A stretch of 64,000 bases of DNA from Phycisphaerae bacterium (GCA_046541415.1 JBKHDI010000001.1:32657-96656), one strand, 5' to 3'; counted from the first letter of the stretch, positions 5,024 through 56,808 are shown. Program-made: numbers and translations. Notes: a model not told the origin generated them from the letters alone.

Positions 5024-6475
5024 ATGCAGCCGCTTACGACCCGTTTTGCCCCCTCGCCGACAGGCCATCTCCACGTGGGATCGGCCCGGACAGCTCTCTT
5101 CGCCTACCTGCTGGCCCGCAAGACCGGCGGAACGTTCGTTGTCCGCATCGAGGACACCGACCGCAGCCGACACATCGAAGAAGCCGTCGACATGATCGTC
5201 CAGGACCTCCGATGGCTGGGGCTGGAGTGGGATGAGGGAATCGAAGTCGGCGGAGCAAACGGGCCATACCGGCAGTCCGAGCGCCTTGAACTCTACGCCC
5301 GGTACATCGAAACGCTCCTGGAGGACGGCAAGGCCTATTACGCCTTCGATACGCCCGAGCAGCTCGATGCCATGCGGGGAAAAGCCCGGGCCGAGAAGAA
5401 AGACTTCCTCTACCCCCGGCCGGAGACGTTCCCCTCTGTCGCCGAGGCCCAGGCGGCCCGAGAGGCGGACAAGCCCGTGGTTGTCCGGTTCGCCTGCCCC
5501 GATCGCGACGTGACGGTCCAGGACGACGCTTTCGGCGAGGTGACAACACCGGCGGCCGTGCTGGACGATTTCGTCATCCAGAAGGCCGACGGCTATCCGA
5601 CATTCTACCTGGCCAACGTGGTCGACGACGCGTTGATGGGCATCAACTACATCACCCGAGGCCAGGAGTTCCTCGGTCAGTCGTGGCGACAGACCCTGCT
5701 GCGTGAGGCCCTGGGATTCGAAGAGCCCGGATGCTGCCACCTGCCACTGATCATGGACATGCAGGGCCGTAAGCTCTCCAAACGCGACGGCGACGTGGAC
5801 GTCGGAAGCTTCCGCGCAGCCGGTTACCTGCCCGAGACGTTGGTGAACTTCGTGGCCCTGCTGGGCTGGAACCCCGGCGGGGACCAGGAGAAGATGTCCC
5901 TGGAGCAGCTTGTCGAGCTGTTCAGCGTCGAGCGGATCGGCAAGACCAACGCGAAGTTCGACCGCGACAAATTGCTGGCCTTCAACACCGACGCCCTGGC
6001 CGCGGCCCAGACCGATCGCCTTGTCGCCGGCTTCAGGGACTACCTGTCCCTGAACGAGTCGCATATCCCGGTCAGCGATGATGCCCTGCTGGGGCGGATC
6101 GTCGACTGCAACCGCGGCTATAAGACCTTCGCCGACCTGAAGGACAAAGTCGACGTGCTCTTCGGCCCCGACGACGCGTTTGCCTACGTCGACAAGGCCG
6201 TTACGAAGGTCCTGGCCAAGAACGACGGACAGGGCTACGAGGTGCTGGAGAAGCTGATCGAGCCGCTCGGCCGGGTCGAGTGGACAGGCCAAGCGCTGCA
6301 CGAGATGATCGAGTCGTTCTGCGAGGCCAACGAACTGGGCATGGGCAAGGTGGCCCAGCCGCTGCGTGTGGCGCTTACCGGCAACACCGTCAGCCCGCCG
6401 ATTACCGATACGCTCGAATTCGTCGGCAGGGAGGCCTGCCTGGCCCGTATTCGGCGCTGCCTGGCCAGGCGGTGA
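5024..6475 (+). CDS. gltX: glutamate--tRNA ligase
   Basis: HIGH-type motif PSPTGHLHVG, KMSK-type motif KLSKRDG, class I GluRS architecture. Start at ATG 5024 (MQPLTTRFAPSPTG). Confidence 0.92.
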   Translation: MQPLTTRFAPSPTGHLHVGSARTALFAYLLARKTGGTFVVRIEDTDRSRHIEEAVDMIVQDLRWLGLEWDEGIEVGGANGPYRQSERLELYARYIETLLEDGKAYYAFDTPEQLDAMRGKARAEKKDFLYPRPETFPSVAEAQAAREADKPVVVRFACPDRDVTVQDDAFGEVTTPAAVLDDFVIQKADGYPTFYLANVVDDALMGINYITRGQEFLGQSWRQTLLREALGFEEPGCCHLPLIMDMQGRKLSKRDGDVDVGSFRAAGYLPETLVNFVALLGWNPGGDQEKMSLEQLVELFSVERIGKTNAKFDRDKLLAFNTDALAAAQTDRLVAGFRDYLSLNESHIPVSDDALLGRIVDCNRGYKTFADLKDKVDVLFGPDDAFAYVDKAVTKVLAKNDGQGYEVLEKLIEPLGRVEWTGQALHEMIESFCEANELGMGKVAQPLRVALTGNTVSPPITDTLEFVGREACLARIRRCLARR

Positions 6476-27485: not shown

Positions 27486-27776
27486 TTGTCGGAATCTGGC
27501 ATGTCGGCCCGACTCGCCTCAAAGCGCACAGCGTACTACTGCTACGGAGGAAATAATACCGGCGCGGACAGCATCCGTGCCCGCCTGGCGGGCCGAATCG
27601 AGCATCGTGCTGCAGGCTGCTGTCCGCATGGGTTCCTCGTGCTGTGCGTAAAAAGCAAGTCCAACAAGGATTATATCGCCCGGGCGGGGAGTGTCAATCG
27701 AGGCTTTCGGTGTTTTTGCCCTCCACGTTCTGCCCGGGTTGTCTATCATAGCCTTCTCAGCCAAGCGGGAGCGGAT

Positions 27777-28136
27777 ATGTCCGGAGAAAAAGAACAGTTC
27801 ATCAGCCAGCCCATCCGTCCGGTGGGCGAGAAACTCGGAACGGCCATGATGGCCATCGGCGAGCCGGCCCTGCCGGAGGCCTTCGTCTTCCGAGGCCGGG
27901 AGTACCGCATCGAGACCATCCAGGCCAGCTGGAAGACCTCCGCCCGGGAAGGGCACAGCCGCACGGGGGAACTGTACCTGCGGCGACACTGGTACCGCGT
28001 GGCGTGCGAAGACGGCTCGATCGCGACGATCTACTGCGACCGCCAGGCCCGCAACCGCAACAAGCCAGGCCAGCGATGGTTCGTCTACTCGGCCTGCTGG
28101 GCCTCGACAGCCCCGGGAACCGAATCGATCGACTGA
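27777..28136 (+). CDS. hypothetical protein (119 aa)
   Basis: ORF from ATG 27777. Convergently overlaps 3' end of next gene by ~50 nt, so extent uncertain. Confidence 0.35.
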   Translation: MSGEKEQFISQPIRPVGEKLGTAMMAIGEPALPEAFVFRGREYRIETIQASWKTSAREGHSRTGELYLRRHWYRVACEDGSIATIYCDRQARNRNKPGQRWFVYSACWASTAPGTESID

Positions 28137-28729
28137 CGCAGGTCGGGCCAGGTCAGGTCGTCGCCGGTCTGCATCTTCCCGTCAGGCCCGGCGCTGGTCA
28201 GCAGGGCGGCGAGGTAGGTTCGGCCATCCTGGCTGATCCGCACGATCTCGTAGCCGATGGCGCTGCCCCACGGATCCTGCAGATCGGTCGGGCTGAGCAC
28301 AGGTGACCAGTTGGCGGAACTGCCCGGCGCGGGAATCCGGGTCAGCACGGCCAGGCCTTCCGGGCCGCTGGGGTACCGCCCGACGATGCTGTGGTAGCGG
28401 ATCAGTTCTTTGTGGATCTTGGCCATCGTCGCCATCGCCAGCTTGGTCTTCAGCCCATTCTCGGCGGCAGAATCCCCGTCACCGGGGCGGAGCGGCAGAG
28501 ACAGCGGCGAATCCGTCTGCCGCTGCTCTTCGACCACATCGAAGCGATCGGCCAACTCGCGATGGGATTCGCTCTTTCTCTCGATCGGGCTGGGGGCCGC
28601 TTCATCAGGGTCCCGATCCGAGGATTCGCGCGGTTCGTAGGGAACCGGTTCAGCGGGCGGTTGGTCCTTGCAGCCGCTTTGCGACAGGAGGGCGACAGAT
28701 AGGGTGCAGACGGCCAGGAGTCTCATCAT
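28085..28729 (-). CDS. lipoprotein with type II secretion pseudopilin G (GspG) C-terminal-like domain
   Basis: Lipoprotein signal MMRLLAVCTLSVALLSQSGC. C-terminal GspG-like motif (YPSGPEGLAVL...DPWGSAIGYEI...DG..Y.L...G.DG). No prepilin GFT(L/I)xE leader. Start ATG overlaps DJ-1 stop (ATGA). Confidence 0.55.
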   Translation of the reverse strand: MMRLLAVCTLSVALLSQSGCKDQPPAEPVPYEPRESSDRDPDEAAPSPIERKSESHRELADRFDVVEEQRQTDSPLSLPLRPGDGDSAAENGLKTKLAMATMAKIHKELIRYHSIVGRYPSGPEGLAVLTRIPAPGSSANWSPVLSPTDLQDPWGSAIGYEIVRISQDGRTYLAALLTSAGPDGKMQTGDDLTWPDLRQSIDSVPGAVEAQQAE

Positions 28730-29244
28730 CGCAGCGCCTCGATGACCGCCTTGGTAAACGCAGGCAGGTCGTCCGGCTTGCGGGCGGTTATCACGTTGCC
28801 GTCGACCACACATTCCTCATCGACCCAGTCGGCCCCGGCGTTGAGCATGTCGTGCTTGATCGCCAGGAAGCTCGTCGCCCGCCTGCCCTGCAGGGCGTCG
28901 GTGCAGCAGAGCATCCACCCGCCGTGGCAGATCGCTGCCAGCAGGATCTGCCCCTCGGCCGCCTGCTGAATGAAGCGAATCATCGAACGGCTGCGACGCA
29001 TGAAGTCCGGACACCAGCCGCCCGGGACGATCACGCAGTGATAGTCCGCCCCGTTGACGTCCGCGGCCGAGTGCGTCGAGACGCACGGATAGCCGAGTTT
29101 CGAGGGGTACTGGGTCTCGGCCTCAGGGGCCACCAGATGCACCTCGGCCTGTTCTTCGATCAGGCGATAGTACGGGTGCCAGACCTCCATCTCCTGGTAC
29201 TGCTGGTCGAGCATGATCGCGATCCGTTTGTCCTGCAGGGTCAT
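28726..29244 (-). CDS. DJ-1/PfpI family protein (class I glutamine amidotransferase-like)
   Basis: 172 aa. Nucleophile-elbow Cys in AAICHGG, typical DJ-1/PfpI sequence. GGAG RBS. Confidence 0.8.
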   Translation of the reverse strand: MTLQDKRIAIMLDQQYQEMEVWHPYYRLIEEQAEVHLVAPEAETQYPSKLGYPCVSTHSAADVNGADYHCVIVPGGWCPDFMRRSRSMIRFIQQAAEGQILLAAICHGGWMLCCTDALQGRRATSFLAIKHDMLNAGADWVDEECVVDGNVITARKPDDLPAFTKAVIEALR

Positions 29245-29305
29245 CGGTGTCTCCTTGAAAAAGGGTACACTTATTTGTATCGAATCGTCTGGCTGATTTC
29301 CAACC

Positions 29306-29783: not shown

Positions 29784-29856
29784 TGGAGCCGAGGGGATTC
29801 GAACCCCTGACCTACGCATTGCGAACGCGTCGCTCTCCCAGCTGAGCTACGGCCCC
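29784..29856 (-). tRNA. tRNA-Ala (anticodon CGC)
   Basis: Minus-strand sequence GGGGCCGTAGCTCAGCTGGGAGAGCGACGCGTTCGCAATGCGTAGGTCAGGGGTTCGAATCCCCTCGGCTCCA folds as cloverleaf. G3:U70 alanine identity pair, anticodon loop TTCGCAA, T-loop GGTTCGAATCC. CCA not encoded. Confidence 0.9.
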
Positions 29857-29926: not shown

Positions 29927-30970
29927 TCAGCCTAGCCCATGCTTGCAGGATGGTTCCGGTCCCAGGTAATTGCCCGTCGCTGCGTAAGCGCGGGCCCGAC
30001 AACCACCGCAAATGCCCTTGTAGCTGCATCGGCCGCAGGCGCCCTGGAGCTTGTCGTAATCCCGAAGGTCGGCCAGGACGGCGCTGTCACGCCAGATGTC
30101 GGCCAGGGGCGTCTGCGTCACGTCGCCGCATTCAACGGGCAGGTAGCCGCAGGGGAACACCTGCCCGACATGGGAGACGAAAACTACCGAGACCCCGCCC
30201 AGGCACCCTCTTGAATGGCCCGTATCCAGGCCCCGCTGGGCGGCGATGCGGTAGTAGTGGGGGGCGCAGGTCGCCTTGATCTCCATCGACCTGCTCTGCT
30301 GGCGATCGACGATCCAGTTCAGCACGGCCTCGTAGCGATCGGGCGGCAGCTGGTGACTCGGGCCGATCTGCACGCCGCAGCCGACCGGGACCAGCAGGAA
30401 CAGGTGCAGCGCCTCGGCCCCGATTTGTCCGGCCAGGGCGTAGATCTCGTCGAGTTGCTGATCATTATGGGCGGCGATGGTGGCGTTGACCTGCAGGGGC
30501 ACGGCCGCAGCTCGCAGGTGCGCCGCACCGGCCATGGCTTGCGCAAAGGCGCCGTCCACACCGCGGAAAGCATCGTGCGCAGCGGCGTCGGCCCCGTCGA
30601 AGCTGATCGAGACGCGACGGAAGCCCGCATTCCGGATCTGTTCGGCGATCCTCGCATCGACCAGCGTGCCATTGGTCGCCAGGGCGGTCGGCAGCGACAG
30701 CGATCGGGCGTAATCGGCCAGTTCCTGCCAGTCGTTCCGCATCAGCGGCTCGCCGCCGGAGAAGACGATGATCGGCATGCCCAGGGTGGCGGCCGAGTCG
30801 AGCACCGACTTGACCTGCGCCGTTGTCAATTCGTCCGGCTGGGCTTGGCCAGGATCCAGCCGCCTGCAATGCACGCAGGCCAGATTGCACCGCGCCGTGG
30901 ACTCCCAGAACAGCAGACGCAGGGGCCTGGGCCCGTCAGTCTGGCCGATATGGCGCGAGGGGGGCGTCAC
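29927..30970 (-). CDS. radical SAM/SPASM protein, NirJ/AhbC/AhbD family (putative alternative heme biosynthesis enzyme)
   Basis: N-terminal LRLLFWESTARCNLACVHC motif characteristic of NirJ-type enzymes. C-terminal Cys-rich SPASM region (CGRCSYKGICGGCRARAYA). GTG start overlapping upstream stop (GTGA). Confidence 0.6.
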   Translation of the reverse strand: MTPPSRHIGQTDGPRPLRLLFWESTARCNLACVHCRRLDPGQAQPDELTTAQVKSVLDSAATLGMPIIVFSGGEPLMRNDWQELADYARSLSLPTALATNGTLVDARIAEQIRNAGFRRVSISFDGADAAAHDAFRGVDGAFAQAMAGAAHLRAAAVPLQVNATIAAHNDQQLDEIYALAGQIGAEALHLFLLVPVGCGVQIGPSHQLPPDRYEAVLNWIVDRQQSRSMEIKATCAPHYYRIAAQRGLDTGHSRGCLGGVSVVFVSHVGQVFPCGYLPVECGDVTQTPLADIWRDSAVLADLRDYDKLQGACGRCSYKGICGGCRARAYAATGNYLGPEPSCKHGLG

Positions 30971-32160
30971 AGTGGCAGGTCTCCCTCGATTTCCGCATCG
31001 GTCAGATAGCAGGCAGGGTCATCTCCCCACAGGTTGCCCGTTGCCGCCTCGGCCCGGGCCCGCAGATTGCCATTGCACATCGGCAGAAAGCGGCAGTCCA
31101 GGCAGCGACATTCCAGGTGTTTGTGTCGGTCGCGCAGCTTTGCCAGCAGCTCGTTGTCCGGGTCTGTCCAGATCTCGCTGAAGGGACGATGCAGCACGTT
31201 GCCCAGCACCTTGTTGCGCCAGAACTGGTCGGGGTGCACGTTGCCGTTCCAGCTGACACAGCCGATGCCGACGCCCGTCGAGTTCCCGCCGTTCATTTGC
31301 AGCAGTTGCAGCGCATTGGCGGCCCGGGCCGGGTCTTCCTCCAGCAGACGCAGGTACAGGTAGGGCCCGTCGGCGTGGTTGTCGACGGTAAGCACCTCGA
31401 CCTGCCTGCGATCGCGGTGCAGCCGGACTGTCCGGTCGATGATCCGGTCGATCGCCTCGCGGGTCTGGGCTGCGTCGAGTGAGTCGGTGCGGATCTGGTC
31501 GCCGCGGCCGGTGTAGGCCAGATGGTAGAAGCAGATCCGCGGGATGTTCTTCTCTTCCAGCAGGTCGAACATGCCGTCTATGTCTTCCACGTTACGGCGG
31601 TTCAGCGTCAGACGCAGGCCGACCTTTACCCCGGCGGATTGACAGTTGTCTATGCCTTCCATCGCCCGATCGAACGCGCCGGCAACGCCCCGGAACTCGT
31701 CGTTGACCTCCCGCAGTCCGTCCAGGCTGATGCCCACGTAACTCAGGCCCGCTCGGGCGAAGGCGTCGGCCTTGACGGGCGTAATCAGCGTGCCATTGGT
31801 CGAAACCACCGCCCGCATGCCGGCCTGGCGGGCATGGCCGATCATCTCCAGCAGGTCCGGACGCATGAGCGGCTCTCCACCGGAGATCAGCAGTACGGGA
31901 CAGCCGAAGCAGGCCAGGTCGTCGATCATAGCCCGGGCCTGCTCGCCAGTCAGTTCATCCGGGGCCGGGTCGCAATTGCTGGCTGAGTAACAATGCGCGC
32001 AGCGTAGATTGCACGCCTTGGTGGAGTTCCAGACCACCACGGGCCTCTTGTCGGCCGAGAACTGCAGCAAATGGCTGGGCAGTTTCCCGCTGTCCCTGCC
32101 GTACCGCAACGGGTCTGATGCCTCGACAGTGCGACAGTAAAGTTTGGAGATTCCGATCAT
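30967..32160 (-). CDS. radical SAM/SPASM protein, NirJ/AhbC/AhbD family (second paralog)
   Basis: MIGISKLYCRTVEASDPLRYGRD leader then RPVVVWNSTKACNLRCAHCYSAS motif. C-terminal SPASM cysteines (CRCLDCRFLPMCNGNLRARA). Start at first ATG (32160), no clear SD. Confidence 0.6.
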   Translation of the reverse strand: MIGISKLYCRTVEASDPLRYGRDSGKLPSHLLQFSADKRPVVVWNSTKACNLRCAHCYSASNCDPAPDELTGEQARAMIDDLACFGCPVLLISGGEPLMRPDLLEMIGHARQAGMRAVVSTNGTLITPVKADAFARAGLSYVGISLDGLREVNDEFRGVAGAFDRAMEGIDNCQSAGVKVGLRLTLNRRNVEDIDGMFDLLEEKNIPRICFYHLAYTGRGDQIRTDSLDAAQTREAIDRIIDRTVRLHRDRRQVEVLTVDNHADGPYLYLRLLEEDPARAANALQLLQMNGGNSTGVGIGCVSWNGNVHPDQFWRNKVLGNVLHRPFSEIWTDPDNELLAKLRDRHKHLECRCLDCRFLPMCNGNLRARAEAATGNLWGDDPACYLTDAEIEGDLPL

Positions 32161-32263
32161 GGCAGGTCCGGCTGGGGGGGTGTTACGTCTATACGGCGGG
32201 GTGCATTCTAGCAGAACCCCGAGTCCTGCCCCAACGCCTGTCTTGCAATTCCGGCCGTCCTGC

Positions 32264-33370
32264 TCAGTTGCCGAACTGGAAGGCCTCGTCCAGCAGCTTA
32301 AAGCCCAGTTGGGTCTGGGTGACCACGAGCCTGCCGTTGACGATCTTGACCGACCCCTTGCCCAGGGGATACCACATGTCATCGCCGATGGCGTTCTTGA
32401 TTATCGCGATGATGCTGTCGCGGTTGCGCGTCTTGAGCCGTTCGAGCTCATCCAGCCCGCCGCGGTCGTCATCATCGTCGTCGTCATCGTCGTCATCGTC
32501 ATCGTCGAAATCGAAGCCGTCATCGTCGTCATCATCGTCGTCGTTGTTCGGCAGGGCCGGCAGGGGGTCCGGGCCCTTGAAGTTGCGGATGGGCATCAGC
32601 GCGTGCTTGATGTCGTAGATGCGGGTCTGGGTTTTCTGGTTCAGGGCCTGCCCGGTGGCGATGGTGACAACGCCGCCGTCGACGACCCAGTAGACGCTGG
32701 AGAACGTGTCGCGGTTGGCGTTGAGCTGGGCCATGACCACGTCGAGCACCCGGGCGGCGGATACGTTGTTGAGCTTCAGCTGGATGGGTGTGTCCGGGCT
32801 GATGCCCTCCAGTTCCAGCGAGGCCCAGTTGACGTGGAAGTTCTGCTCTGTTGTTGTCCGCATGAACTGGACCACGTCGCGCAGGGCGATGTTGTCGAAG
32901 TCATACTGGACCTGGCTGCGCCGGGCCGGCTGTTTGCCCCTGGCGGCCTCGACGGCAGTGCCAACGGCGGGAAGGGTGCGCACGCGGCGATCGCGCCCGG
33001 CCTGGGATCGAAGCAGGAGGTACCGCTGCTGGCTGGTTACCAGGATCTTGCCGTCGTGGACCAGCCATGTCAGGGGCTTTCCCTGCGGGGAGACGCGCAC
33101 CAGCAGCGTATCCAGCAGGGCTGCGGGTTTGACCTCGCGCCGGGCTATGCGGACAGGGGTATCCAGCGACACGCCATAGCTCTCCAGCGTGCGGGCGTCG
33201 ATGTGGACCTTCATGTCGACCTTGCTGCCGACCCACGCCAGGGCCTGGCCCAGCGTGGCCGGGATGCCCGCGGTGGAGACCGGCTGCTTCATCGGATCGG
33301 CCTTCTCGGCCGCCGCCGGGGCGAGCGAGAGGAGTGTCAGCAAGGCTGCGATCGAGAGTTGCTGTTTCAT
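32264..33370 (-). CDS. secreted protein with two STN/secretin-N-like repeat domains and a 26-residue poly-aspartate tract
   Basis: Signal peptide MKQQLSIAALLTLLSLAPAAA. Two similar ~80-aa units (HIDARTLESYGVSLDTPVRIARREVKPAALLDTL / YDFDNIALRDVVQFMRTTTEQNFHVNWASLELEG). DDDDDDDDGFDFDDDDDDDDDDDDDD tract. GGGAGA RBS. Confidence 0.55.
   Translation of the reverse strand: MKQQLSIAALLTLLSLAPAAAEKADPMKQPVSTAGIPATLGQALAWVGSKVDMKVHIDARTLESYGVSLDTPVRIARREVKPAALLDTLLVRVSPQGKPLTWLVHDGKILVTSQQRYLLLRSQAGRDRRVRTLPAVGTAVEAARGKQPARRSQVQYDFDNIALRDVVQFMRTTTEQNFHVNWASLELEGISPDTPIQLKLNNVSAARVLDVVMAQLNANRDTFSSVYWVVDGGVVTIATGQALNQKTQTRIYDIKHALMPIRNFKGPDPLPALPNNDDDDDDDDGFDFDDDDDDDDDDDDDDRGGLDELERLKTRNRDSIIAIIKNAIGDDMWYPLGKGSVKIVNGRLVVTQTQLGFKLLDEAFQFGN
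32465..32542. repeat. in-frame (GTC/ATC)n trinucleotide simple-sequence repeat encoding poly-Asp
   Basis: 26 near-consecutive GTC/ATC codons on plus strand (GAC/GAT on coding strand), interrupted only by GAA-ATC-GAA-GCC. Confidence 0.85.
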
Positions 33371-33513
33371 GGTATCTCCCGCGGTTGGCTGGCCGCCGGA
33401 TCGAACGGGCAGATCCGACATCAGCGAAGGCTGTCTCTGCTGTTCTAATTGTAGCCTGTCCGGGCGCAGAAAGGTTGCGCCGTCTTGATCCAGACAGCCT
33501 CGCTGCCCGGCGG

Positions 33514-34386
33514 TTAGTACATGCTTCGCAGATAACCCCGTGCGGTGGCAAACCAGCCCGTGCCCCAATGTCGCAGGCCGTGCAGCAGCAGCGAGGCTAG
33601 ACCAACCGCAGTCAGATCGGCGGCGTTGGCCTCGATAAAGCTGATCACGCTGGACGGGTGATTGCGCACGTGGAGCAGCTCGCAGTGTTCCATGTTGTCA
33701 TCGGCCTTGCGGGCGCCTTCACGCAGTTCGGCCACGCCGGCATCGACGCAGACGTCGAAGATCATCTCCGGCTGGACGATGTGCTTGTCGCGAACCAGGC
33801 CCAGGCAGATCATCTCGGTAATCTTCTCGCCGGGCATGGCGCACTCTTCCAGCAGTTCCTCGGCCATGGTCCGGAAGGGGCAGGGCAGTTGGTCAGGCTC
33901 CTCGGGAGGCTGGACGACGCCCCCGATCGGGTGGATCCGTCCGGCGTGGTAGTACACGTGCTCGCTGCGCCGCCCGAGCAGCAGGAAGCCGTCGTTGGTC
34001 TGCAGGGCCGCCGAGACGCCCAGGGCGTCGCCGAGGATGTCCGGGCCATACTCGTACCGCAGATGGGCGTGTGTCAGGTTGGTGCCCAGGAACGTCTTGA
34101 AGTCGATCGGGCCCAGATCTAGCGTCAGGTCGTCGCCGGTGGTCGAGCAGTCTTCCAATCGACACAGTTGGCCGTTGAACAGGCGACGGTCGGTCCCCTG
34201 GGCCTTTTCCATCTGCTCGGCCCAGGTCTTGTCGATCAACTCCGTCACAGCCTCGCTGACCGGACGGCTGAGAGTCGACCACTTGACCCGGACGCGCTCG
34301 GGGGGGTACTTCCCGACCATGTCCAGGAAGAAACGCCCGCAGTCGCGGACGCCTCCGTTGGTTTTGTGCACTTCGTATGCCTGCAA
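33514..34386 (-). CDS. hypothetical protein (290 aa; degenerate NUDIX-like box GGVVQPPEE..RTMAEELLEE)
   Basis: Coherent ORF between hemB and secreted protein. TTG start with GAGG RBS. Fold assignment tentative. Confidence 0.4.
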   Translation of the reverse strand: MQAYEVHKTNGGVRDCGRFFLDMVGKYPPERVRVKWSTLSRPVSEAVTELIDKTWAEQMEKAQGTDRRLFNGQLCRLEDCSTTGDDLTLDLGPIDFKTFLGTNLTHAHLRYEYGPDILGDALGVSAALQTNDGFLLLGRRSEHVYYHAGRIHPIGGVVQPPEEPDQLPCPFRTMAEELLEECAMPGEKITEMICLGLVRDKHIVQPEMIFDVCVDAGVAELREGARKADDNMEHCELLHVRNHPSSVISFIEANAADLTAVGLASLLLHGLRHWGTGWFATARGYLRSMY

Positions 34387-34415
34387 CGTCAGTTCCTCTG
34401 TATTCCCTTGTATTG

Positions 34416-35411
34416 TTATCCCCGGGACATCGCCCGGGCAAGATCTTCGGCAAAGTAGGTGATGATCCAGTCTGCCCCGGCCCGCTTGATGGCCGTTACG
34501 GTCTCGGCCGCTGCGTCGGGCAGCTTCAGCCAGCCACGCTGGGCGGCGGCATGGAGCATGGCGTACTCGCCGCTGACCTGGTAGGCCGCCAGGGGCAGAT
34601 CGAACCGCTGCCGGAGCGACTGGAGGATATCCAGGTAGGCCCCGGCGGGTTTGACCATCAGCATGTCCGCACCTTCGTCCACGTCACCTGCGGCTTCGAG
34701 CATCGCCTGCCGGCCGCTACGGTAGTCCATCTGATAGCTGCGCCGGTCGCCGGCTTGCGGGGCGCTGTCCGCGGCGTCCCGGAAAGGGCCGTACAGCGAC
34801 GAAGCGAACTTCACCGCATAAGACAGAATCGCCGTCTGTTCGTGTCCGTCCCGGTCCAGGGCCTGGCGGATCGCTCCGACCTGGCCGTCCATCATCGCCG
34901 AGGGGGCGACCACGTCCGCCCCGCAGGCTGCGTGGGAAACCGCGATCCGCCCGAGTGATTCTATCGCCCGGTCGTTCTCGACCGTCACAGTCCCGTCCGC
35001 CTGCTCGACCAGCGGGCCACAATGGCCATGGTCGGTGTATTCGCACAGGCAGACGTCGGTGATTACCAGCAGCCCGGGCCATCGCTGTTTGATCTGTCCG
35101 ACCAGTCGGCCGACCGGCTGGGTGTCATCCCAGGCGCTGCTGCCTTCGGCGTCCTTGCTTTCGGGCAGGCCGAACAGCAAGACTGTCCGAATGCCCAGAT
35201 CCACCCACGTGCCGACCTTCGTTATCGCCTGATCGACCGACAGTTGGAACTGCCCGGGCATGGAGGCGATCTCGCGGGCCTGGGCTTTGCCGGGACAGAC
35301 GAACAACGGCGCAACAAGCTGTCGGGCCGAGAGAAAGACCTCGGCCAGCGAGTCTCGCATTGTCGACGTCCGTCGGAGTCGACGCAAACGCCTGGCTGGA
35401 TATCGGCTCAT
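34416..35411 (-). CDS. hemB: porphobilinogen synthase (delta-aminolevulinic acid dehydratase)
   Basis: N-terminal RRLRRLRR motif and active-site region match HemB (VSGEYAMLHAAAQ, catalytic lysines). 331 aa. Confidence 0.92.
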   Translation of the reverse strand: MSRYPARRLRRLRRTSTMRDSLAEVFLSARQLVAPLFVCPGKAQAREIASMPGQFQLSVDQAITKVGTWVDLGIRTVLLFGLPESKDAEGSSAWDDTQPVGRLVGQIKQRWPGLLVITDVCLCEYTDHGHCGPLVEQADGTVTVENDRAIESLGRIAVSHAACGADVVAPSAMMDGQVGAIRQALDRDGHEQTAILSYAVKFASSLYGPFRDAADSAPQAGDRRSYQMDYRSGRQAMLEAAGDVDEGADMLMVKPAGAYLDILQSLRQRFDLPLAAYQVSGEYAMLHAAAQRGWLKLPDAAAETVTAIKRAGADWIITYFAEDLARAMSRG

Positions 35412-35525
35412 GGTTTCCCATTCAGCTGCCCCGATTGCGGCGTGGGCGACAATAAATACATAGTCGCTGGTGCAATCAGAGACACTATAGCAGATGCATA
35501 ACGATATCTCAAGCCTGCGTTCGGG

Positions 35526-45338: not shown

Positions 45339-45567
45339 GTAGAAGGGGTCCTCTGCTGATTGCGCCTGTCAAGTCTGCGAGAATGGCGACGATCGCTGAG
45401 CCTAGCTGAATGGAGGGCCGTGTGCAAGGCTCCTGCCGCATCAGGCGAAATCGGGAAAGACTGAACGCATCCGGTCCGCCGGCCGATATGGAAGGGGAAT
45501 CTGCTCGGGCAGCACGGACAGGGAGGGGGTGGCGCCCCTGAGAGAACCTCAAACAAGGATACTGGAA

Positions 45568-46878
45568 ATGAAGAGCAGGACGCTTTCGGCGACGTGGATT
45601 GTGTTGTTCTACTGTTCAGGGCTTCTCCAGGCCCAGACGGTTGATGGGGAAAACGTCGTCTCGGATGCTCCCCAGCCGGACAGGTCAGGCAGCTTCACCG
45701 ACGACATCGTCGGACGAGACACCCTGACCGACAACTGGTTCGGTTTCGGCGACAAGCTGGTCCAGCAGGGCATCTGGGTAGGGTTGGGCACGACGAATGT
45801 CTACCAGGTCAACACCCACGGCGGGATCAGCACGCACGACCGCGAAGACCGCTTCACCGGCAGCTATGACCTGGAAGTGGAGTTCGATCTGGAGACGCTG
45901 CTGAATCTGCCTGACGCCATACTCTACGCCTACGCGGTGGGCAACTACAATGACGGGATCGACCCCGAGTCGATCGGCTCGGCCGTGGGGAACGTCAACG
46001 CCGACGCTGCCGGCGACCAGGCGATCATGCTGGCAGAACTGTACTACCAGCAGGCCTTGCTGGACGGCCGGCTGATGATCAAGATCGGCAAGATGGACCT
46101 GGCTGGCGGCTACGAATGCAAGGACTGCCCGGGCAGCTTCGACGGAAACAGCTACGCCAACGACGAGGCCACCCAGTTTCTCAACGCAGCCCTGGTCAAT
46201 AACCCTACGATTCCCTTCCCGGACTATGCTCTGGGCGTGATGGCGCACTACGAATTCCTTGACTCGCTGTATGTCTCAGCCGCGGTCGGCGATGCCCAGG
46301 CCGACGGCAGGGAGACGGGCTTTAACACCGCCTTCCACGACGAAGACTACTTCTTCAGCATCTTCGAGTTCGGCTACACACCGCGGATTGCCTGTCCCCG
46401 CGGCGGGCTGCAGGGGGCCTACCGCGTGGGGGTCTGGTATGACCCGCAGGACAAGACGCGTTTTACAGCCGGGACGACCAAACGCGATGACGTGGGCTTC
46501 TACTTCAGTGCTGACCAGAAAATCTACAACGAAAACGCCGACCGCGATGGCCAGGGCATGGGCGTCTTCGCCCGCTTCGGCTGGGCTGATGACGACATAA
46601 ACGCCGTCTCGCTGTTCTGGTCGGCGGGCCTGCAGTACCAGGGCCTGGTCCCGCAGCGGGATGATGACGTGCTGGCCTTCGGCGTCGCCAGCGGCAAGCT
46701 GACGCAGGCGGCTGGGTTCACCGACGCGTGGGAAACCGTCTACGAGCTCTATTACAGCCTGCAGCTTACCGGCTGGCTGCAGATCACCCCGTCGGTCCAG
46801 TACATCCAGGACCCCGGCGCAGCCGATGCCGCCAAGGACGCCCTGGTTGCGGGACTGCGCCTGCACCTGACGTTCTAG
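45568..46878 (+). CDS. carbohydrate-selective porin, OprB family (outer-membrane beta-barrel)
   Basis: Signal peptide, alternating amphipathic beta-strands, C-terminal Phe. OprB-like motifs. 436 aa. Confidence 0.7.
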   Translation: MKSRTLSATWIVLFYCSGLLQAQTVDGENVVSDAPQPDRSGSFTDDIVGRDTLTDNWFGFGDKLVQQGIWVGLGTTNVYQVNTHGGISTHDREDRFTGSYDLEVEFDLETLLNLPDAILYAYAVGNYNDGIDPESIGSAVGNVNADAAGDQAIMLAELYYQQALLDGRLMIKIGKMDLAGGYECKDCPGSFDGNSYANDEATQFLNAALVNNPTIPFPDYALGVMAHYEFLDSLYVSAAVGDAQADGRETGFNTAFHDEDYFFSIFEFGYTPRIACPRGGLQGAYRVGVWYDPQDKTRFTAGTTKRDDVGFYFSADQKIYNENADRDGQGMGVFARFGWADDDINAVSLFWSAGLQYQGLVPQRDDDVLAFGVASGKLTQAAGFTDAWETVYELYYSLQLTGWLQITPSVQYIQDPGAADAAKDALVAGLRLHLTF

Positions 46879-52617: not shown

Positions 52618-54108
52618 CTACTTGGCGACCTGGGCAAACGGCTCGACGTGGCGGCCGAGATGGTGGGCCAGGACATCGTAATGCTCTTGCTCGTGCGTCT
52701 CCAGCGCCTCGTACATCCGCGTGCGGAATTTCGAGCCGCCCTCGGCGGTCAGCACGGACCCGAACGTCACGTGGAAGACCTGTCGGGCGTCGAAGTCGTC
52801 CAGCAGATCGGCCAGCTGGTCATCGCTGAGCGTATCGGCGGCCGGGACCTTGCTGACGTCGGCCGAAACGTGGTACGTCGCCTTGTCCGTCTCGTAGCGG
52901 TCGCGTGCGAAGTCGAGGATCTCGCGGTACAGGTCGGGCTGAACCTTCGAGATCGCCCGCAGCGCTTCGAGGTAGCTCGTCCCGGCGGTCTTGAGGTGCA
53001 CGGTCCCGCCGGTCATCTCGGCGACGATGGGGTAGATGCTGAACTTGTCCGACCCGGAGTGGATCGACATCTTGTACGGGCCAAGCGTCCGCATGACGGC
53101 CACGTGTTCGGCGAAGCTCTTGCGGAAGATATCCAGGTCGCCGATGTAGTCGACACCTTTCTCGAAGCGCCCGATAAAACGCGGGGCCATCGAGACCCAC
53201 TTCACGCCGCACCGCTTCAACTCGTTGGCGAAGAAGTAGTGCTCTGCCGGGCTGGTCGGGCTGTCGGTCTCATCGACGCTGACTTCCAGCTCGAACTTCT
53301 CGTCGTCGAGTCTGGTCTGCAGGTGGCGGTACATCTTCAGCGTGTGAGCCACGGCCCCGCCGTACTTGATGAACGCGCGGTAGAACGTCTCGGCGTCGAA
53401 GGCGACGCTCCCGCCACCGACCAGGTCGAACGTCTTGCCGACATAGCTGCCTTTCAGATCGGCCGGGCTGGTATCCAGCTGGGCCACCAGGTCGGTCAGG
53501 GTATCGAACCGCGATTCCAGTTGGTCGCTGGACAGCTCGTCAGCCTCGTTGACCACGTGCTGGCCCGGATCGATGGTGAACATCGTAAACCCGGCCGCCA
53601 CCGTCACGTCGATGTCCTCCAACTGCTGGAGGTGGTCGGCGTCGGACCCGAAGCCGTCCGTGTAGCCTTCCTGCAGCACGCCGAAGGTGGCCGCGTCCAT
53701 CACCTGCTCGGGCGTCCGCTGGGTGCGGGTCATCTCGCGGATCGACTGCTGGGCCAGGATCGGCACCACGCCGCTGTCGCGGATCGAGCGGATGTGACCC
53801 GGCGTCGCCAGGCCCAGCCGATCGCCCAGCCCGGCGCTGGTGGCCAGGCCGACGCACTTCGCTGCCGTCCAGGGCAGCAGGCGGCGGATGTGCTCTGCCG
53901 CGTTGTGGTCGGCCGGTCCGACGCAGACGCACAGGCCGTCGATCTGGGCGACCTCTTCCGTGCCTTGCCACCAGCCTGGCCCGACGATGCCCACAAGCTT
54001 CTGCCTGCCCTTGCCAGCCAGGAAGAACGTCGAACCGTCCTTCTCGACAATGCTGGATTCGTACACGTCCAGGCCCGTTGCCTGGTCAAGTTGGTCCTTG
54101 CTGAGCAT
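52618..54108 (-). CDS. tagaturonate/fructuronate epimerase (UxaE)-like protein
   Basis: 496 aa, pattern and size recalled for UxaE family. Adjacent SDR fits hexuronate module. Assignment from memory. Confidence 0.4.
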   Translation of the reverse strand: MLSKDQLDQATGLDVYESSIVEKDGSTFFLAGKGRQKLVGIVGPGWWQGTEEVAQIDGLCVCVGPADHNAAEHIRRLLPWTAAKCVGLATSAGLGDRLGLATPGHIRSIRDSGVVPILAQQSIREMTRTQRTPEQVMDAATFGVLQEGYTDGFGSDADHLQQLEDIDVTVAAGFTMFTIDPGQHVVNEADELSSDQLESRFDTLTDLVAQLDTSPADLKGSYVGKTFDLVGGGSVAFDAETFYRAFIKYGGAVAHTLKMYRHLQTRLDDEKFELEVSVDETDSPTSPAEHYFFANELKRCGVKWVSMAPRFIGRFEKGVDYIGDLDIFRKSFAEHVAVMRTLGPYKMSIHSGSDKFSIYPIVAEMTGGTVHLKTAGTSYLEALRAISKVQPDLYREILDFARDRYETDKATYHVSADVSKVPAADTLSDDQLADLLDDFDARQVFHVTFGSVLTAEGGSKFRTRMYEALETHEQEHYDVLAHHLGRHVEPFAQVAK

Positions 54109-54123
54109 GGGTTTCCTTCCCGT

Positions 54124-54603
54124 CTATTCTGGATCCGTCTGCCCCTGCCAGGCCTCTGCAGCCGACCGGGACTCCTGGTACTTTCCGATTGTGTTTGTCA
54201 TGCTGCTCCAGGCGATCAACAACCAGAACGCGCCCAGGACAACATAGAGTATCTTCAAGCCCTGCAGGTTCCTTCCGACATCTTCGCGTTCGACCCGAAG
54301 CACGTACATGTCTGTCAGGCTCAGGGCAACGATACCGAAGAACGTCAGGATCATCAGGACCCGCCCGACGGCAGCGACGAGACAATGCGTCAGATTGCCC
54401 TGCCAGGTCCGACGATCAACTGTCGTCTTGCCTTGATCACCGATGAGGTAGAAGCCGTCTTCTGCATCCGGCGTGGTTCCCAGGGCCCGGCCTCCCTGGC
54501 GGCTGGTGACAGCACGGAAGGCTACCTCATTGGCCAGCAGCAACAGCAGCAACACCATGAGCATCAGCCAGATTCGCGGGATGATCTTCCTGGCGTTCGC
54601 CAT
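54124..54603 (-). CDS. hypothetical membrane protein (3 predicted TM)
   Basis: Start at MANARKIIPRIWLMLMVLLLLLLA. Track ORF extends 5'. Confidence 0.45.
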   Translation of the reverse strand: MANARKIIPRIWLMLMVLLLLLLANEVAFRAVTSRQGGRALGTTPDAEDGFYLIGDQGKTTVDRRTWQGNLTHCLVAAVGRVLMILTFFGIVALSLTDMYVLRVEREDVGRNLQGLKILYVVLGAFWLLIAWSSMTNTIGKYQESRSAAEAWQGQTDPE

Positions 54604-54619
54604 CGCCGGGCCGCTGCGG

Positions 54620-55179
54620 CTACTCGTAGACCGGTTCGGGCTGGGATTCGGGCAGTTCAAAACCTTCCGGCCTCCACCGCCAGTCAAGCTGTCCCTGGTG
54701 CTCTGCCTTGAGGCGGTTGACATCCTTCTGGGCTTGGATGATCAGCCCATAGAGGCGGTCAAAGGGCGGCAGTGACTCGGTCTTCCGGGAGCGGACAATG
54801 CTTACGTGTTCGCCGCTGTCCAGGGACAGGCCGATGACAATCAGGCTGCCGTCGGGAACCGCCGGGTGACGGCGTCGAGCCATCTTGGCCAGGCTCGGGT
54901 CGGCCAAAGCTTCGGCCAGGTCCCGGTACTGCTCTTCGGTCAGCTCAAAGGGGTAGCGGGCTTCCTGAAAACCGGACCTGGACGGACGGACCTCCTGCAC
55001 CCAGGCTGATCGATCAGCCCGAATGAAGACGTTCCGCCCGCCCATGCCCTCGATCTTGGTATCGTAAAGGATCACGTGCTCAATGGCATCGGGCCTGATG
55101 ACCAGGGGCTTTTCTTGCCTCTGACAGCCGACCTGCAGGGCGATTGCAGCCAGCAGAAGAACCAAAGTGGAATATCGCA
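54620..55179 (-). CDS. hypothetical lipoprotein (lipobox ALQVGC)
   Basis: GTG start with AAGGA RBS. Signal VRYSTLVLLLAAIALQVGC. 186 aa. Confidence 0.5.
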
Positions 55180-55200
55180 CGTGACGTTGTCCTTTCGACC

Positions 55201-56652
55201 TTACGCGTCGTAGGTCTGGGCCGTGACGTCGCCGCCGGTGCCCGTCCAGTTGGTGTGGAAGAACTCGCCGCGCGGCTTGTCGACGCGCTCGTAAGTGTGG
55301 GCGCCGAAGTAGTCGCGCTGGGCCTGGAGCAGGTTGGCCGGCAGGCGCTCGGAGCGGTAGCCGTCGAAGTACGCCAGGGCCGAGCTGAAGGCCGGAACCG
55401 GCACGCCCTGGACGACCGCATGGGCCACCACCCGCCGCCAGGCTTCCTGCGACTCGATGACCGCCTTCTTGAAGTAGGGGTCCAGCAGCAGGTTGACCAG
55501 TTCCGGATCGTTCTTGTACGCGTCGCGGATCTTGCCGAGGAACTGCGAGCGGATGATGCACCCGCCGCGCCACATCAGGGCGATCCCGCCGTAGTTCAGG
55601 TCCCAACTGTACTCCTTGGCAGCCTCGCGCATCAGCTGGTAGCCCTGTGCGTAGGAGACGATCTTGGACGCATAGAGGGCGTCGCGGATGTCGTTGAGGA
55701 ACGACTTCCTGTCGCCTTCGAACTTCGGGCTCGGGCCGGTCAGCTGCTTGGACGCCTCGACACGCTCTTCCTTCAAAGCCGAGAGGCAGCGGGCGAAGAC
55801 CGCCTCGCCGATCAGCGTCAGGGGCATGCCCAGTTCCAGCGCGGTAATGCCCGTCCACTTGCCCGTGCCCTTCTGTCCGGCGCGGTCCATGATCACGTCG
55901 ACCATGGGCTTACCCGTCTGCTCGTCATCCTTGGACAGGATGTCGCGGGTGATCTCGATGAGGTAGCTGTCCAGGTCACCGGCGTTCCACTCGTCGAAGA
56001 CCTCGGACATCTCCTTGGGGCTCATGCCCATCGACTGCATCATCGAGTAGGCCTCGCAGATCAGCTGCATGTCGCCATATTCGATGCCGTTGTGAACCAT
56101 CTTGACGAAATGGCCCGCGCCGTCCTGGCCGACCCAGTCGCAGCAGGGCTCGCCGCCCTCGACCTTGGCCGAGATGTCCTGGAAGATCGGCTTGACGTGC
56201 TCCCAAGCTGCCGGGCTGCCGCCGGGCATGATGCTCGGACCGCGACGGGCGCCTTCTTCGCCGCCGGAAACACCCGTGCCGATGTAGAGCATGCCCTTGT
56301 CTTCGACATACTTCGTGCGGCGGATGGTGTCGTTGAAGTTGCTGTTGCCCCCGTCGATGATGATATCGCCTTCGTCCAGATGGGGGATGACCTTGTCGAT
56401 GAACTTGTCGACTGCGTCGCCTGCCTTGACCAGCAGCATCACGCGGCGGGGCTTCTTGAGCTTCGAGACGAACTCCTCGATCGAGTGAGTCCCGATCACA
56501 TCAGTACCCTTGGCCGGGCCCTCGATGAACTTGTCGACCTTCTCGACCGTCCGGTTGAACACGGCAATGGTGTAGCCGTTGTCGTTCATGTTCAACACGA
56601 GGTTCTGGCCCATCACGGCCAGTCCAATCAATCCTAGATCCGCTTCTGACAT
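55201..56652 (-). CDS. gnd: NADP-dependent 6-phosphogluconate dehydrogenase (decarboxylating)
   Basis: [15 protein letters not shown] Rossmann motif and full-length 6PGDH pattern (483 aa). Confidence 0.93.
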
Positions 56653-56808
56653 ATCGTCTATTCCTCTCTGCGAAATAATCGAACCCGTATATCGGCTGGC
56701 TCGTCGACGAAAGCCCTCTCCCGCCGCTGCAGCCGGATTTCCTACTCTACCGCACGCGAAGACAATTGCAAGTTCAAGCGTCCGCAAATCCTAACGAACC
56801 GCCCAGGC

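What the first reader, a model, noticed from the sequence alone, without database searches (positions are those of the whole stretch)
29927..35411. hemB-linked pair of NirJ/AhbC/AhbD-type radical-SAM/SPASM enzymes (translationally coupled, GTGA overlap): candidate siroheme-dependent heme branch
Two adjacent radical SAM proteins carry the NirJ-family N-terminal motif (LxW(E/N)xTxxCNLxCxHC) and C-terminal SPASM cysteines. They overlap by 4 nt and sit in one minus-strand block with hemB. In the siroheme-dependent (alternative) heme pathway, AhbC and AhbD are exactly such a pair. AhbA/AhbB (Lrp/AsnC-like decarboxylase) are not in the window. Two unrelated ORFs (a NUDIX-like hypothetical and a secreted poly-Asp protein) are intercalated between hemB and the rSAM pair, which is odd for a cofactor operon. 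Alternative: the pair matures something else (RiPP or other cofactor).
Basis: partly seen in the sequence, partly recalled or inferred. Interest (0 to 1): 0.6.

Follow-up and report, generated by a model that had tools for sequence, protein, structure and literature searches.

The report
AhbC–AhbD heme genes in Phycisphaerae
Two overlapping radical-SAM genes in this Phycisphaerae genome fragment are ordinary orthologues of AhbC and AhbD, the last two enzymes of the known oxygen-independent, siroheme-dependent route to heme, so this is a routine annotation gain and not a new system.

Summary
Two minus-strand radical-SAM/SPASM genes (30967-32160 and 29927-30970) overlap by GTGA and lie 2.3 kb downstream of hemB (34416-35411).

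The upstream gene scores best as AhbC (TIGR04546, 637 bits; next NirJ1 509, NirJ 385). It is 61-66% identical to the AhbC of sulfate-reducer ahbC-hemB-ahbD clusters. The downstream gene scores best as AhbD (TIGR04545, 403 bits). It carries the complete published AhbD SPASM cysteine motif and is 45-49% identical to Desulfacinum and Methanococcoides AhbD. Peptide-maturase and PqqE models score far lower.

The ahbC-ahbD pair recurs as a stand-alone module in every close Phycisphaerae relative sampled. hemB does not travel with it there, although hemB sits directly upstream of ahbD in 52 of 66 loci from other phyla. The two intervening ORFs are a divergent NUDIX-family protein and a secreted poly-Asp protein. 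Neither shows conserved synteny with ahbCD.

AhbA/B is absent from the window, and I could not search the rest of this genome. Fused AhbA/B is common in Phycisphaerae and lies beside ahbD/ahbC in two Planctomycetota MAGs.

Verdict: a new member of a known kind, of low interest.

The parts
30967..32160 (-). ahbC: 12,18-didecarboxysiroheme deacetylase (Fe-coproporphyrin III synthase), 397 aa, radical SAM/SPASM
   Evidence: Best NCBIfam hit is TIGR04546 at 637 bits (cutoff 650), over profile positions 1-390 of 390; NirJ1 scores 509 and NirJ 385. It is 100% identical to P0001 and 65-66% identical to the AhbC of Desulfacinum and Desulfobacterales. The CX3CX2C motif is at C50/54/57. The C-terminal CX2CX5CX21C motif is at C353/356/362/384 and is invariant in 16 of 16 AhbC sequences.
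29927..30970 (-). ahbD: heme b synthase (coproheme decarboxylase, radical SAM/SPASM), 347 aa, GTG start
   Evidence: Best NCBIfam hit is TIGR04545 at 402.6 bits (cutoff 500); NirJ2 scores 317 and PqqE 147. It is 45% identical to Desulfacinum AhbD, which itself passes the cutoff at 573.7 bits. It is 49% identical to a Methanococcoides AhbD that sits next to ahbA-ahbB-hemA-hemB. The full AhbD SPASM motif is at C235...C342.
30967..30970 (-). GTGA overlap of the ahbC stop and the ahbD start (translational coupling)
   Evidence: Read directly from the sequence. The same 4-nt overlap occurs in the same-species contigs L001-L004 and in relative L099.
30981..30987 (-). Shine-Dalgarno-like GAGGGAG, 10 nt upstream of the ahbD GTG
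   Evidence: Read from the sequence. Function is inferred.
34416..35411 (-). hemB: porphobilinogen synthase, 331 aa
   Evidence: NF006762 at 447.9 bits (cutoff 297) and Pfam ALAD at E 1.4e-134.
35484..35512 (-). Sigma-70-like promoter match upstream of hemB (TTGAGA-17-TATAGT, 10 of 12 positions, TG extension)
   Evidence: Consensus scan only. This is not evidence of function.
33514..34386 (-). Intercalated ORF, 290 aa: divergent NUDIX-family protein of unknown function, not part of the heme module
   Evidence: No Pfam or NCBIfam hit of its own. The family has 881 cluster representatives, and its homologues hit Pfam NUDIX. It has no homologue in any related ahbCD locus.
32264..33370 (-). Intercalated ORF, 368 aa: secreted acidic protein with a poly-Asp tract, not part of the heme module
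   Evidence: Signal-like N-terminus and a D-run are visible in the translation. No family hits. It is found only in the same-species contigs L001 and L002.
29784..29856 (-). tRNA-Ala(CGC), 70 nt downstream of ahbD; marks the end of the ahbCD unit
   Evidence: ARAGORN and Rfam RF00005 at 66.7 bits.

Best explanation
The pair encodes the two terminal radical-SAM enzymes of the siroheme-dependent (alternative, Ahb) heme pathway in an uncultured Phycisphaerae bacterium.

AhbC (30967-32160) would remove the two acetate side chains of 12,18-didecarboxysiroheme to give Fe-coproporphyrin III. AhbD (29927-30970) would oxidatively decarboxylate two propionates to vinyls to give heme b. Each enzyme uses a SAM-binding [4Fe-4S] cluster plus auxiliary SPASM clusters, and neither needs O2.

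The two genes are translationally coupled (GTGA overlap, SD-like site) and form a conserved stand-alone two-gene module in this Phycisphaerae clade. hemB, 2.3 kb upstream on the same strand, supplies an early shared step. It is only loosely linked here, being separated by two unrelated lineage-specific ORFs.

The preceding steps, siroheme synthesis and AhbA/B siroheme decarboxylase, must be encoded elsewhere in the genome.

Shown: gene structure, family placement, motifs and synteny. Inferred: the enzymatic activities, the presence of AhbA/B and siroheme synthase in this genome, and any co-transcription with hemB.
For: 1. Family placement. The best NCBIfam equivalogs are AhbC (637 bits) and AhbD (402.6 bits), each well above the sister models NirJ1/NirJ/NirJ2. 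RiPP maturase, PqqE and MftC models score only 100-170 bits.

2. Cysteine motifs. AhbD matches CX3CX2C and the full motif CX20-33CX17CX36-37CX2CX5CX2CX17-35C, which was defined for the AhbD of methanogens and sulfate reducers in PMC10452713. AhbC has the CX2CX5CX20-21C motif described in PMC10114771.

3. Identity to genes in canonical clusters. AhbC is 61-66% identical to the AhbC of ahbC-hemB-ahbD clusters in Thermodesulfobacteriota, against 46% to Paracoccus NirJ. AhbD is 45% identical to Desulfacinum AhbD and 49% to a Methanococcoides AhbD adjacent to ahbA, ahbB, hemA and hemB.

4. NJ tree. AhbC falls in a clade with sulfate-reducer AhbC (bootstrap 76), apart from NirJ and the pseudo-SAM protein. 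AhbD falls in a Planctomycetota clade (bootstrap 88) nested among AhbD sequences.

5. Pair conservation. The pair is conserved in L001-L006, L008/9, L013-15, L099 and L100.

6. AhbA/B in relatives. It lies beside ahbD/ahbC in the Planctomycetota MAGs L017 and L022. Fused AhbA/B occurs in many Phycisphaeraceae and Tepidisphaeraceae MAGs and in cultured Fontivita pretiosa.

7. hemB linkage elsewhere. hemB lies directly upstream of ahbD in 52 of the 66 non-Planctomycetota loci that have enough upstream sequence. Clusters that mix early hem genes with ahb genes are described in PMC3942049.
Against: Both proteins fall below NCBI's curated equivalog cutoffs: AhbC 637 against 650, and AhbD 403 against 500. 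The whole Phycisphaerae AhbD clade scores 380-400 and lacks about 12 residues present in Desulfacinum AhbD.

No AhbA/B, siroheme synthase or other late heme gene lies in the 64 kb. The rest of the genome could not be read.

The tree has no non-tetrapyrrole SPASM outgroup and its deep nodes are weakly supported.

No AhbC, AhbD or NirJ structure exists in the PDB to anchor active-site comparisons.

Planctomycetes have been cited as carriers of HemQ, the coproporphyrin-route enzyme (PMC5095920). A different main heme route in this organism is therefore not excluded.
Confidence: 0.85

Rival explanations
1. AhbD, and perhaps the pair, serves a coproporphyrin-type or hybrid route. The organism would make coproheme mainly through HemY/CpfC or take it up. 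AhbD would then act as an oxygen-independent substitute for ChdC/HemQ, so the genome need not run a full siroheme branch.
For: Many loci in Thermoleophilia and some Planctomycetota (L016, L018-L020) carry ahbD without ahbC within 10 kb. Planctomycetes are cited as HemQ carriers (PMC5095920). No AhbA/B is present in the window.
Against: In this window ahbD is translationally coupled to a bona fide ahbC. The only known substrate of AhbC is didecarboxysiroheme, which requires AhbA/B. The pair is conserved as a unit across the clade. Known siroheme-route users also keep ahbAB more than 10 kb from ahbCD (L007, L010), so its absence from the window says little.
Confidence: 0.08
2. The upstream gene is a NirJ-type enzyme for heme d1 synthesis and not AhbC.
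For: NirJ and AhbC are close homologues that use the same substrate. The protein scores 385 bits on the NirJ model and is 46% identical to Paracoccus NirJ.
Against: The AhbC model scores 252 bits higher than the NirJ model, which is itself below its 515-bit cutoff. The protein is 66% identical to the AhbC of ahbC-hemB-ahbD clusters. The window has no nirS, nirF, nirN or nirE of the kind that surrounds nirJ in Paracoccus. Its partner gene is AhbD-like, and AhbD has no role in d1 synthesis.
Confidence: 0.03
3. The pair matures a peptide (RiPP) or another cofactor, in the manner of PqqE, MftC or the haloarchaeal TIGR04347 pseudo-SAM protein with its Htur_1727 peptide.
For: Both proteins have the rSAM/SPASM architecture shared with RiPP maturases. 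The upstream protein scores 440 bits on TIGR04347.
Against: The TIGR04347 score is below its 525-bit cutoff and about 200 bits below the AhbC score. PqqE, MftC and sactipeptide models reach only 100-170 bits. The closest PDB relatives (PqqE, SkfB, anSME) are distant, at 29-81 bits. I saw no small precursor-type ORF abutting the pair of the kind annotated in Halogeometricum. Genomic neighbours in other phyla are heme genes: hemB, hemA, ahbAB and cytochrome c assembly genes.
Confidence: 0.03

Closest known systems
AhbC and AhbD of sulfate-reducing bacteria (Desulfovibrio vulgaris/desulfuricans type; ahbC-hemB-ahbD clusters of Thermodesulfobacteriota such as Desulfacinum hydrothermale)
   Same: The two enzyme families, the radical-SAM and auxiliary-cluster cysteine motifs, and the presence of hemB nearby on the same strand all match. 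AhbC is 61-66% identical and AhbD 43-48% identical.
   Different: The gene order differs. Here it is hemB-X-Y-ahbC-ahbD with ahbC and ahbD overlapping, whereas sulfate reducers place hemB between ahbC and ahbD. AhbD is a shorter, divergent Planctomycetota subclade that scores below the equivalog cutoff. The host is a polysaccharide-degrading Phycisphaerae MAG, not a sulfate reducer.
Methanosarcina barkeri AhbD (Mbar_A1458) and AhbC (Mbar_A1793), characterised experimentally (PMC3942049, PMC10452713)
   Same: The full eight-cysteine SPASM motif is present with identical spacing in the C-terminal part (C256, C274, C312, C315, C321, C324, C342, which coincide with M. barkeri numbering). Identity to a Methanococcoides AhbD is 49%.
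   Different: In Methanosarcinales ahbD is clustered with ahbA and ahbB, as the gene numbers Mbar_A1458-1460 and L021 show. Here ahbD is coupled to ahbC and AhbA/B is elsewhere.
NirJ of heme d1 biosynthesis (Paracoccus, Pseudomonas)
   Same: It is a homologous rSAM/SPASM enzyme acting on didecarboxysiroheme, 46% identical to the window AhbC.
   Different: It carries out different chemistry, removing propionates. It lies in a nirS/nirE/nirDLGH/nirN context that is absent here, and its model scores lower.
NirJ1/NirJ2 plus fused AsnC-type siroheme decarboxylase cluster of Firmicutes (for example Paenibacillus polymyxa plasmid pSb31l)
   Same: An adjacent AhbC-like and AhbD-like pair in the same order.
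   Different: That cluster carries the fused AhbAB gene immediately downstream. Identity is only 52% and 41%.

Membership tests
AhbC (12,18-didecarboxysiroheme deacetylase, TIGR04546) | Radical-SAM CX3CX2C cluster motif | tested here: met
   C50-X3-C54-X2-C57, conserved in 16 of 16 aligned AhbC sequences.
AhbC (12,18-didecarboxysiroheme deacetylase, TIGR04546) | C-terminal auxiliary-cluster motif CX2CX5CX20-21C (PMC10114771) | tested here: met
   C353, C356, C362 and C384 give CX2CX5CX21C, invariant in 16 of 16.
AhbC (12,18-didecarboxysiroheme deacetylase, TIGR04546) | Scores above the curated equivalog cutoff and above sister families | tested here: inconclusive
   It is the best hit, with end-to-end coverage, at 637 bits against a cutoff of 650. 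NirJ1 scores 509, TIGR04347 440 and NirJ 385. It is therefore top-ranked but 13 bits short of the cutoff.
AhbC (12,18-didecarboxysiroheme deacetylase, TIGR04546) | Groups with AhbC of organisms known to use the siroheme route and not with NirJ | tested here: met
   61-66% identity to the AhbC of ahbC-hemB-ahbD clusters. The NJ clade with these has bootstrap 76 and excludes Paracoccus NirJ and the Halogeometricum pseudo-SAM protein.
AhbC (12,18-didecarboxysiroheme deacetylase, TIGR04546) | Converts didecarboxysiroheme to Fe-coproporphyrin III | not testable with these tools
   This needs the in vivo CysG+AhbAB+AhbC assay of PMC3942049.
AhbD (heme b synthase, TIGR04545) | CX3CX2C motif plus the AhbD SPASM motif CX20-33CX17CX36-37CX2CX5CX2CX17-35C (PMC10452713) | tested here: met
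   C28/32/35 form the first motif. A regex match covers 235-342 with C235, 256, 274, 312, 315, 321, 324 and 342.
AhbD (heme b synthase, TIGR04545) | Scores above the curated equivalog cutoff and above sister families | tested here: inconclusive
   It is the best hit at 402.6 bits against a cutoff of 500. NirJ2 scores 317 and TIGR04053 311. All Phycisphaerae-clade AhbD sequences score 381-391, while Desulfacinum AhbD scores 573.7.
AhbD (heme b synthase, TIGR04545) | Groups with AhbD from canonical ahb clusters | tested here: met
   45-49% identity to AhbD of Desulfacinum and Methanococcoides. The Planctomycetota clade (bootstrap 88) nests within the AhbD group (node support 52). That clade includes L017 and L022, whose ahbD lies next to AhbA/B.
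AhbD (heme b synthase, TIGR04545) | Converts Fe-coproporphyrin III to heme b | not testable with these tools
   This needs an in vitro assay with reconstituted enzyme.
Complete siroheme-dependent heme pathway | AhbA/AhbB siroheme decarboxylase encoded in the same genome | not testable with these tools
   It is absent from the 64-kb window. The source contig and the rest of the MAG could not be retrieved. It is present in class-level relatives.
Complete siroheme-dependent heme pathway | Siroheme synthesis genes (SirA/CobA, SirC, SirB or CysG) in the genome | not tested
   None was found among the window ORFs scanned. The rest of the genome is unavailable.
NirJ (heme d1) | NirJ equivalog score and nirS/nirF/nirN/nirE context | tested here: not met
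   385 bits against a cutoff of 515. There are no cd1-type genes in the window, in contrast to Paracoccus locus L093.
RiPP/cofactor SPASM maturases (PqqE, MftC, sactipeptide, TIGR04347) | Best match to a maturase family and an adjacent precursor peptide gene | tested here: not met
   All maturase models are far below their cutoffs and below the Ahb models. I saw no small ORF abutting the pair.

The most novel reading that the evidence does not exclude
This Phycisphaerae clade may have acquired a sulfate-reducer-type ahbC together with a Planctomycetota-specific, shortened AhbD as a self-contained two-gene 'anaerobic finishing module'. That module could run alongside, or replace, the coproporphyrin/HemQ route reported for Planctomycetes. 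Coproheme would be the shared node, giving oxygen-dependent and oxygen-independent heme completion in one organism. It would also extend the siroheme route beyond the textbook 'archaea and sulfate reducers'.
Probability: 0.2. Interest if true: 0.4.

Novelty: new member of a known kind. Interest (0 to 1): 0.18.

Why it matters
The main gain is in annotation. The exact AhbC protein is deposited only as 'radical SAM protein' (P0001). The whole Phycisphaerae AhbD clade falls under NCBI's AhbD cutoff, so automated pipelines will miss the last heme step in these genomes.

Recognising the pair indicates that these uncultured polysaccharide degraders can finish heme without oxygen. This fits an anoxic lifestyle.

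It also adds to the evidence that the siroheme-dependent route is much wider than 'archaea and sulfate-reducing bacteria'. Hits came from Phycisphaerae, Kiritimatiellota, Thermoleophilia, Chloroflexota and Bacillota.

No new chemistry or gene architecture is implied.

Tried and rejected
1. Looking up the AhbD protein by exact sequence failed. The AhbC look-up returned only short same-species contigs, not the 160-kb source contig, so the rest of the genome could not be walked.

2. The PDB sequence search found no AhbC, AhbD or NirJ structure. The best hits were PqqE, SkfB and anSME, all distant.

3. I tried to find AhbA/B of the same genome in three steps.
   - I took a fused siroheme decarboxylase from a Paenibacillus plasmid and searched the protein database with it. 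The hits were mostly Firmicutes and Chloroflexi.
   - I repeated the search with the Planctomycetota fused AhbAB from L017. This gave many Phycisphaerae hits.
   - I compared NCBI accession series with those of P0001 (MFP4353518, MFW5840178) and found no match. One contig look-up (P0277) came from a different assembly.
   I then abandoned this line.

The best hit was 67% identical.

5. The first tree script timed out. I redid it with numpy distances.

6. Pfam at E<=0.5 gave no NUDIX hit for the 290-aa ORF itself. The contigs of its closest homologue were too short to test hemB linkage.

7. Rfam found no riboswitch or regulatory RNA in the region.

8. The review by Dailey et al. 2017 (PMC5312243) is not held. 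Literature searches found no paper linking Ahb genes with Planctomycetota or Phycisphaerae.

9. I considered that the NUDIX-like or poly-Asp ORFs might be pathway components and rejected the idea. They have no homologue next to ahbCD in any relative outside the same species.


Full report
**Observation**

The region 29927-35411 holds five co-oriented minus-strand ORFs:
- hemB, 34416-35411
- a 290-aa ORF, 33514-34386
- a 368-aa secreted poly-Asp protein, 32264-33370
- two radical-SAM/SPASM genes, 30967-32160 and 29927-30970

Reading the junction of the last two shows ...CCA CTG TGA with the next gene starting at GTG within it. A GAGGGAG site lies 10 nt upstream.

The intergenic gaps are as follows:

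| Junction | Gap (nt) |
|---|---|
| hemB to ORF290 | 29 |
| ORF290 to poly-Asp | 143 |
| poly-Asp to ahbC | 103 |
| ahbC to ahbD | -4 |
| ahbD to tRNA-Ala(CGC) | 70 |

The tRNA-Ala is confirmed by ARAGORN and by Rfam.

**What the two radical-SAM genes are**

Against NCBIfam, the upstream protein matches AhbC (TIGR04546) end to end at 637 bits. NirJ1 scores 509, the haloarchaeal pseudo-SAM family 440 and NirJ 385. The downstream protein matches AhbD (TIGR04545) at 402.6 bits, with NirJ2 at 317 and TIGR04053 at 311. PqqE, mycofactocin, sactipeptide and other RiPP maturase models reach only 100-170 bits.

Both top scores are below NCBI's curated cutoffs (650 and 500). That explains why the identical database protein P0001 is named only 'radical SAM protein [Phycisphaerae bacterium]'.

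The cysteine architecture fits:
- AhbD has CX3CX2C at C28/32/35. It also has an exact match to the eight-cysteine AhbD SPASM motif CX20-33CX17CX36-37CX2CX5CX2CX17-35C, published for methanogen and sulfate-reducer AhbD (PMC10452713).
- AhbC has CX3CX2C at C50/54/57 and the CX2CX5CX21C auxiliary motif.

**Comparison with genes of known context**

AhbC is 65-66% identical to the AhbC of Desulfacinum hydrothermale and a Desulfobacterales MAG. In both, it sits in an ahbC-hemB-ahbD cluster. It is only 46% identical to annotated Paracoccus NirJ.

AhbD is 45% identical to the Desulfacinum AhbD, which passes the equivalog cutoff at 573.7 bits. It is 49% identical to a Methanococcoides AhbD that lies next to ahbA, ahbB, hemA and hemB. 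The adjacent gene numbers Mbar_A1458-1460 of the characterised M. barkeri AhbD, AhbA and AhbB (PMC3942049) point to the same clustering.

In a bootstrapped NJ tree of 45 sequences, the window AhbC groups with Phycisphaerae and sulfate-reducer AhbC (bootstrap 76), apart from NirJ and the pseudo-SAM protein. The window AhbD lies in a Planctomycetota clade (bootstrap 88) within the AhbD group. The tree lacks non-tetrapyrrole outgroups, so the HMM score gaps carry that part of the argument.

The PDB holds no AhbC, AhbD or NirJ structure.

**Synteny**

The window's species recurs on four short contigs with the same ahbC/ahbD overlap, followed by a DJ-1/PfpI gene.

In more distant Phycisphaerae/Planctomycetota relatives (AhbD 63-67% identical: L005, L008/9, L013-15, L099, L100) the ahbC-ahbD pair is always adjacent. 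L099 has the same 4-nt overlap. The flanks vary, and none carries hemB or AhbA/B within 10 kb.

Outside the phylum the picture differs. Among the 70 non-Planctomycetota loci returned by the genome scan, hemB lies directly upstream of ahbD in 52 of the 66 with enough upstream sequence. The full ahbC-hemB-ahbD order is seen in at least 19, and an AhbA/B-type gene is in the locus in 10.

So hemB-ahb linkage is a classic feature of this pathway, and PMC3942049 describes clusters of early hem genes with nir-like genes. In the window, however, the linkage is loose, differently ordered, and not shared by relatives. It may be a remnant or a coincidence.

**The intercalated ORFs**

Neither ORF has a homologue near ahbCD in any locus outside the same species.

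The 290-aa ORF has no Pfam hit of its own. It belongs to a family with 881 cluster representatives, whose members reach the Pfam NUDIX threshold. The 'NUDIX-like' label is therefore reasonable, and nothing connects it to tetrapyrroles.

The poly-Asp protein has no detectable family.

Both are best read as lineage-specific passengers.

**Pathway completeness**

No AhbA/B-like sequence occurs in the 64 kb by tblastn with nine queries, and the ORF scans found no other heme-pathway gene.

This absence is weak evidence. Bona fide siroheme-route users also keep ahbAB more than 10 kb away from ahbCD (L007, L010).

I could not reach the rest of this genome. At class level the enzyme is present:
- Planctomycetota MAG L017 has a fused AhbAB between ahbD and ahbC.
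- Phycisphaerae MAG L022 has ahbA/B-ahbD-ahbC with a second AhbA/B domain fused to AhbC.
- A search with the L017 protein returned thousands of homologues. These include named Phycisphaeraceae and Tepidisphaeraceae MAG proteins and the protein of cultured Fontivita pretiosa.

**Mechanism**

Inferred from the characterised orthologues (PMC3942049, PMC10114771, PMC10452713), the steps are:
1. Siroheme is decarboxylated by AhbA/B, encoded elsewhere, to 12,18-didecarboxysiroheme.
2. AhbC removes the two acetates on rings A and B by radical-SAM chemistry to give Fe-coproporphyrin III.
3. AhbD decarboxylates two propionates to vinyls to give heme b, with its two auxiliary [4Fe-4S] clusters probably handling electron removal.

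The overlapping stop and start codons and the SD-like site suggest coupled, roughly stoichiometric translation.

**Rivals**

- A NirJ/heme d1 role is contradicted by the score gap, the AhbD partner and the lack of any cd1 context.
- A RiPP or other cofactor role is contradicted by the family scores, by the absence of a small ORF abutting the pair, and by the heme genes that neighbour the homologues in other phyla.
- The one rival I cannot dismiss is that AhbD, or the pair, supplements a coproporphyrin-type route. Planctomycetes are cited as HemQ carriers, and some lineages carry ahbD without ahbC.

**Novelty and verdict**

The enzymes, chemistry and pairing are known. Close homologues in Phycisphaerae MAGs are already auto-annotated as AhbC (P0030, P0048).

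The open-access literature I could search still describes the pathway as one of 'archaea and sulfate-reducing bacteria', and does not mention Ahb genes together with Planctomycetota. The finding is therefore a modest taxonomic extension and an annotation correction.

I rate it a new member of a known kind, with interest 0.18.

Noticed in passing
L022:5426-7147 (Phycisphaerae MAG JAPLMX010000130.1): One uninterrupted 580-codon reading frame joins an AhbC-like radical-SAM domain to a C-terminal AhbA/B-type siroheme decarboxylase domain. A separate 164-aa AhbA/B-like ORF precedes ahbD. This looks like an AhbC-AhbA/B gene fusion.
   Followed up: partly
L069-L071, L075, L076, L079, L080, L082 (Thermoleophilia MAGs); L016, L018-L020 (Planctomycetota): The Thermoleophilia loci carry hemB-ahbD, and the Planctomycetota loci ahbD alone, with no ahbC within 10 kb. 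AhbD may serve there as an oxygen-independent coproheme decarboxylase in a coproporphyrin-type route.
   Followed up: no
window 33514-34386 (-): The 290-aa ORF belongs to a sizeable uncharacterised NUDIX-related family with 881 cluster representatives. Many members are about 490 aa and carry an extra N-terminal domain of about 200 aa with no Pfam hit. Others are fused to SIR2_2 (P0500) or patatin (P0495) domains.
   Followed up: partly
window 46546-46634 (+): ARAGORN calls an 89-nt tRNA-Arg(TCG) inside the OprB-family porin ORF (45529-46878). Rfam does not confirm it at gathering score, so it is probably a false positive.
   Followed up: partly
window 3987-5003 (-) and 4982-6475 (+): A third radical-SAM protein of 338 aa has only the Pfam Radical_SAM core, no SPASM domain, and no NCBIfam family at the 1e-40 limit I used. 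It lies divergently beside glutamyl-tRNA synthetase (gltX). Its function was not determined.
   Followed up: no
window 52618-56787 (-) versus L100:13637-16840: The 6-phosphogluconate dehydrogenase and tagaturonate epimerase (UxaE) genes lie about 22 kb from ahbCD in the window. In relative L100 they sit directly downstream of ahbCD, which indicates rearranged long-range synteny.
   Followed up: no
window 28085-29247 (-) and 27486-28136 (+): A DJ-1/PfpI gene, a T2SS pseudopilin-like (T2SSG) gene and a DUF6504 gene follow ahbD and tRNA-Ala. PfpI downstream of ahbCD is conserved in several Phycisphaerae relatives at 73-75% identity (L008, L009, L014).
   Followed up: partly
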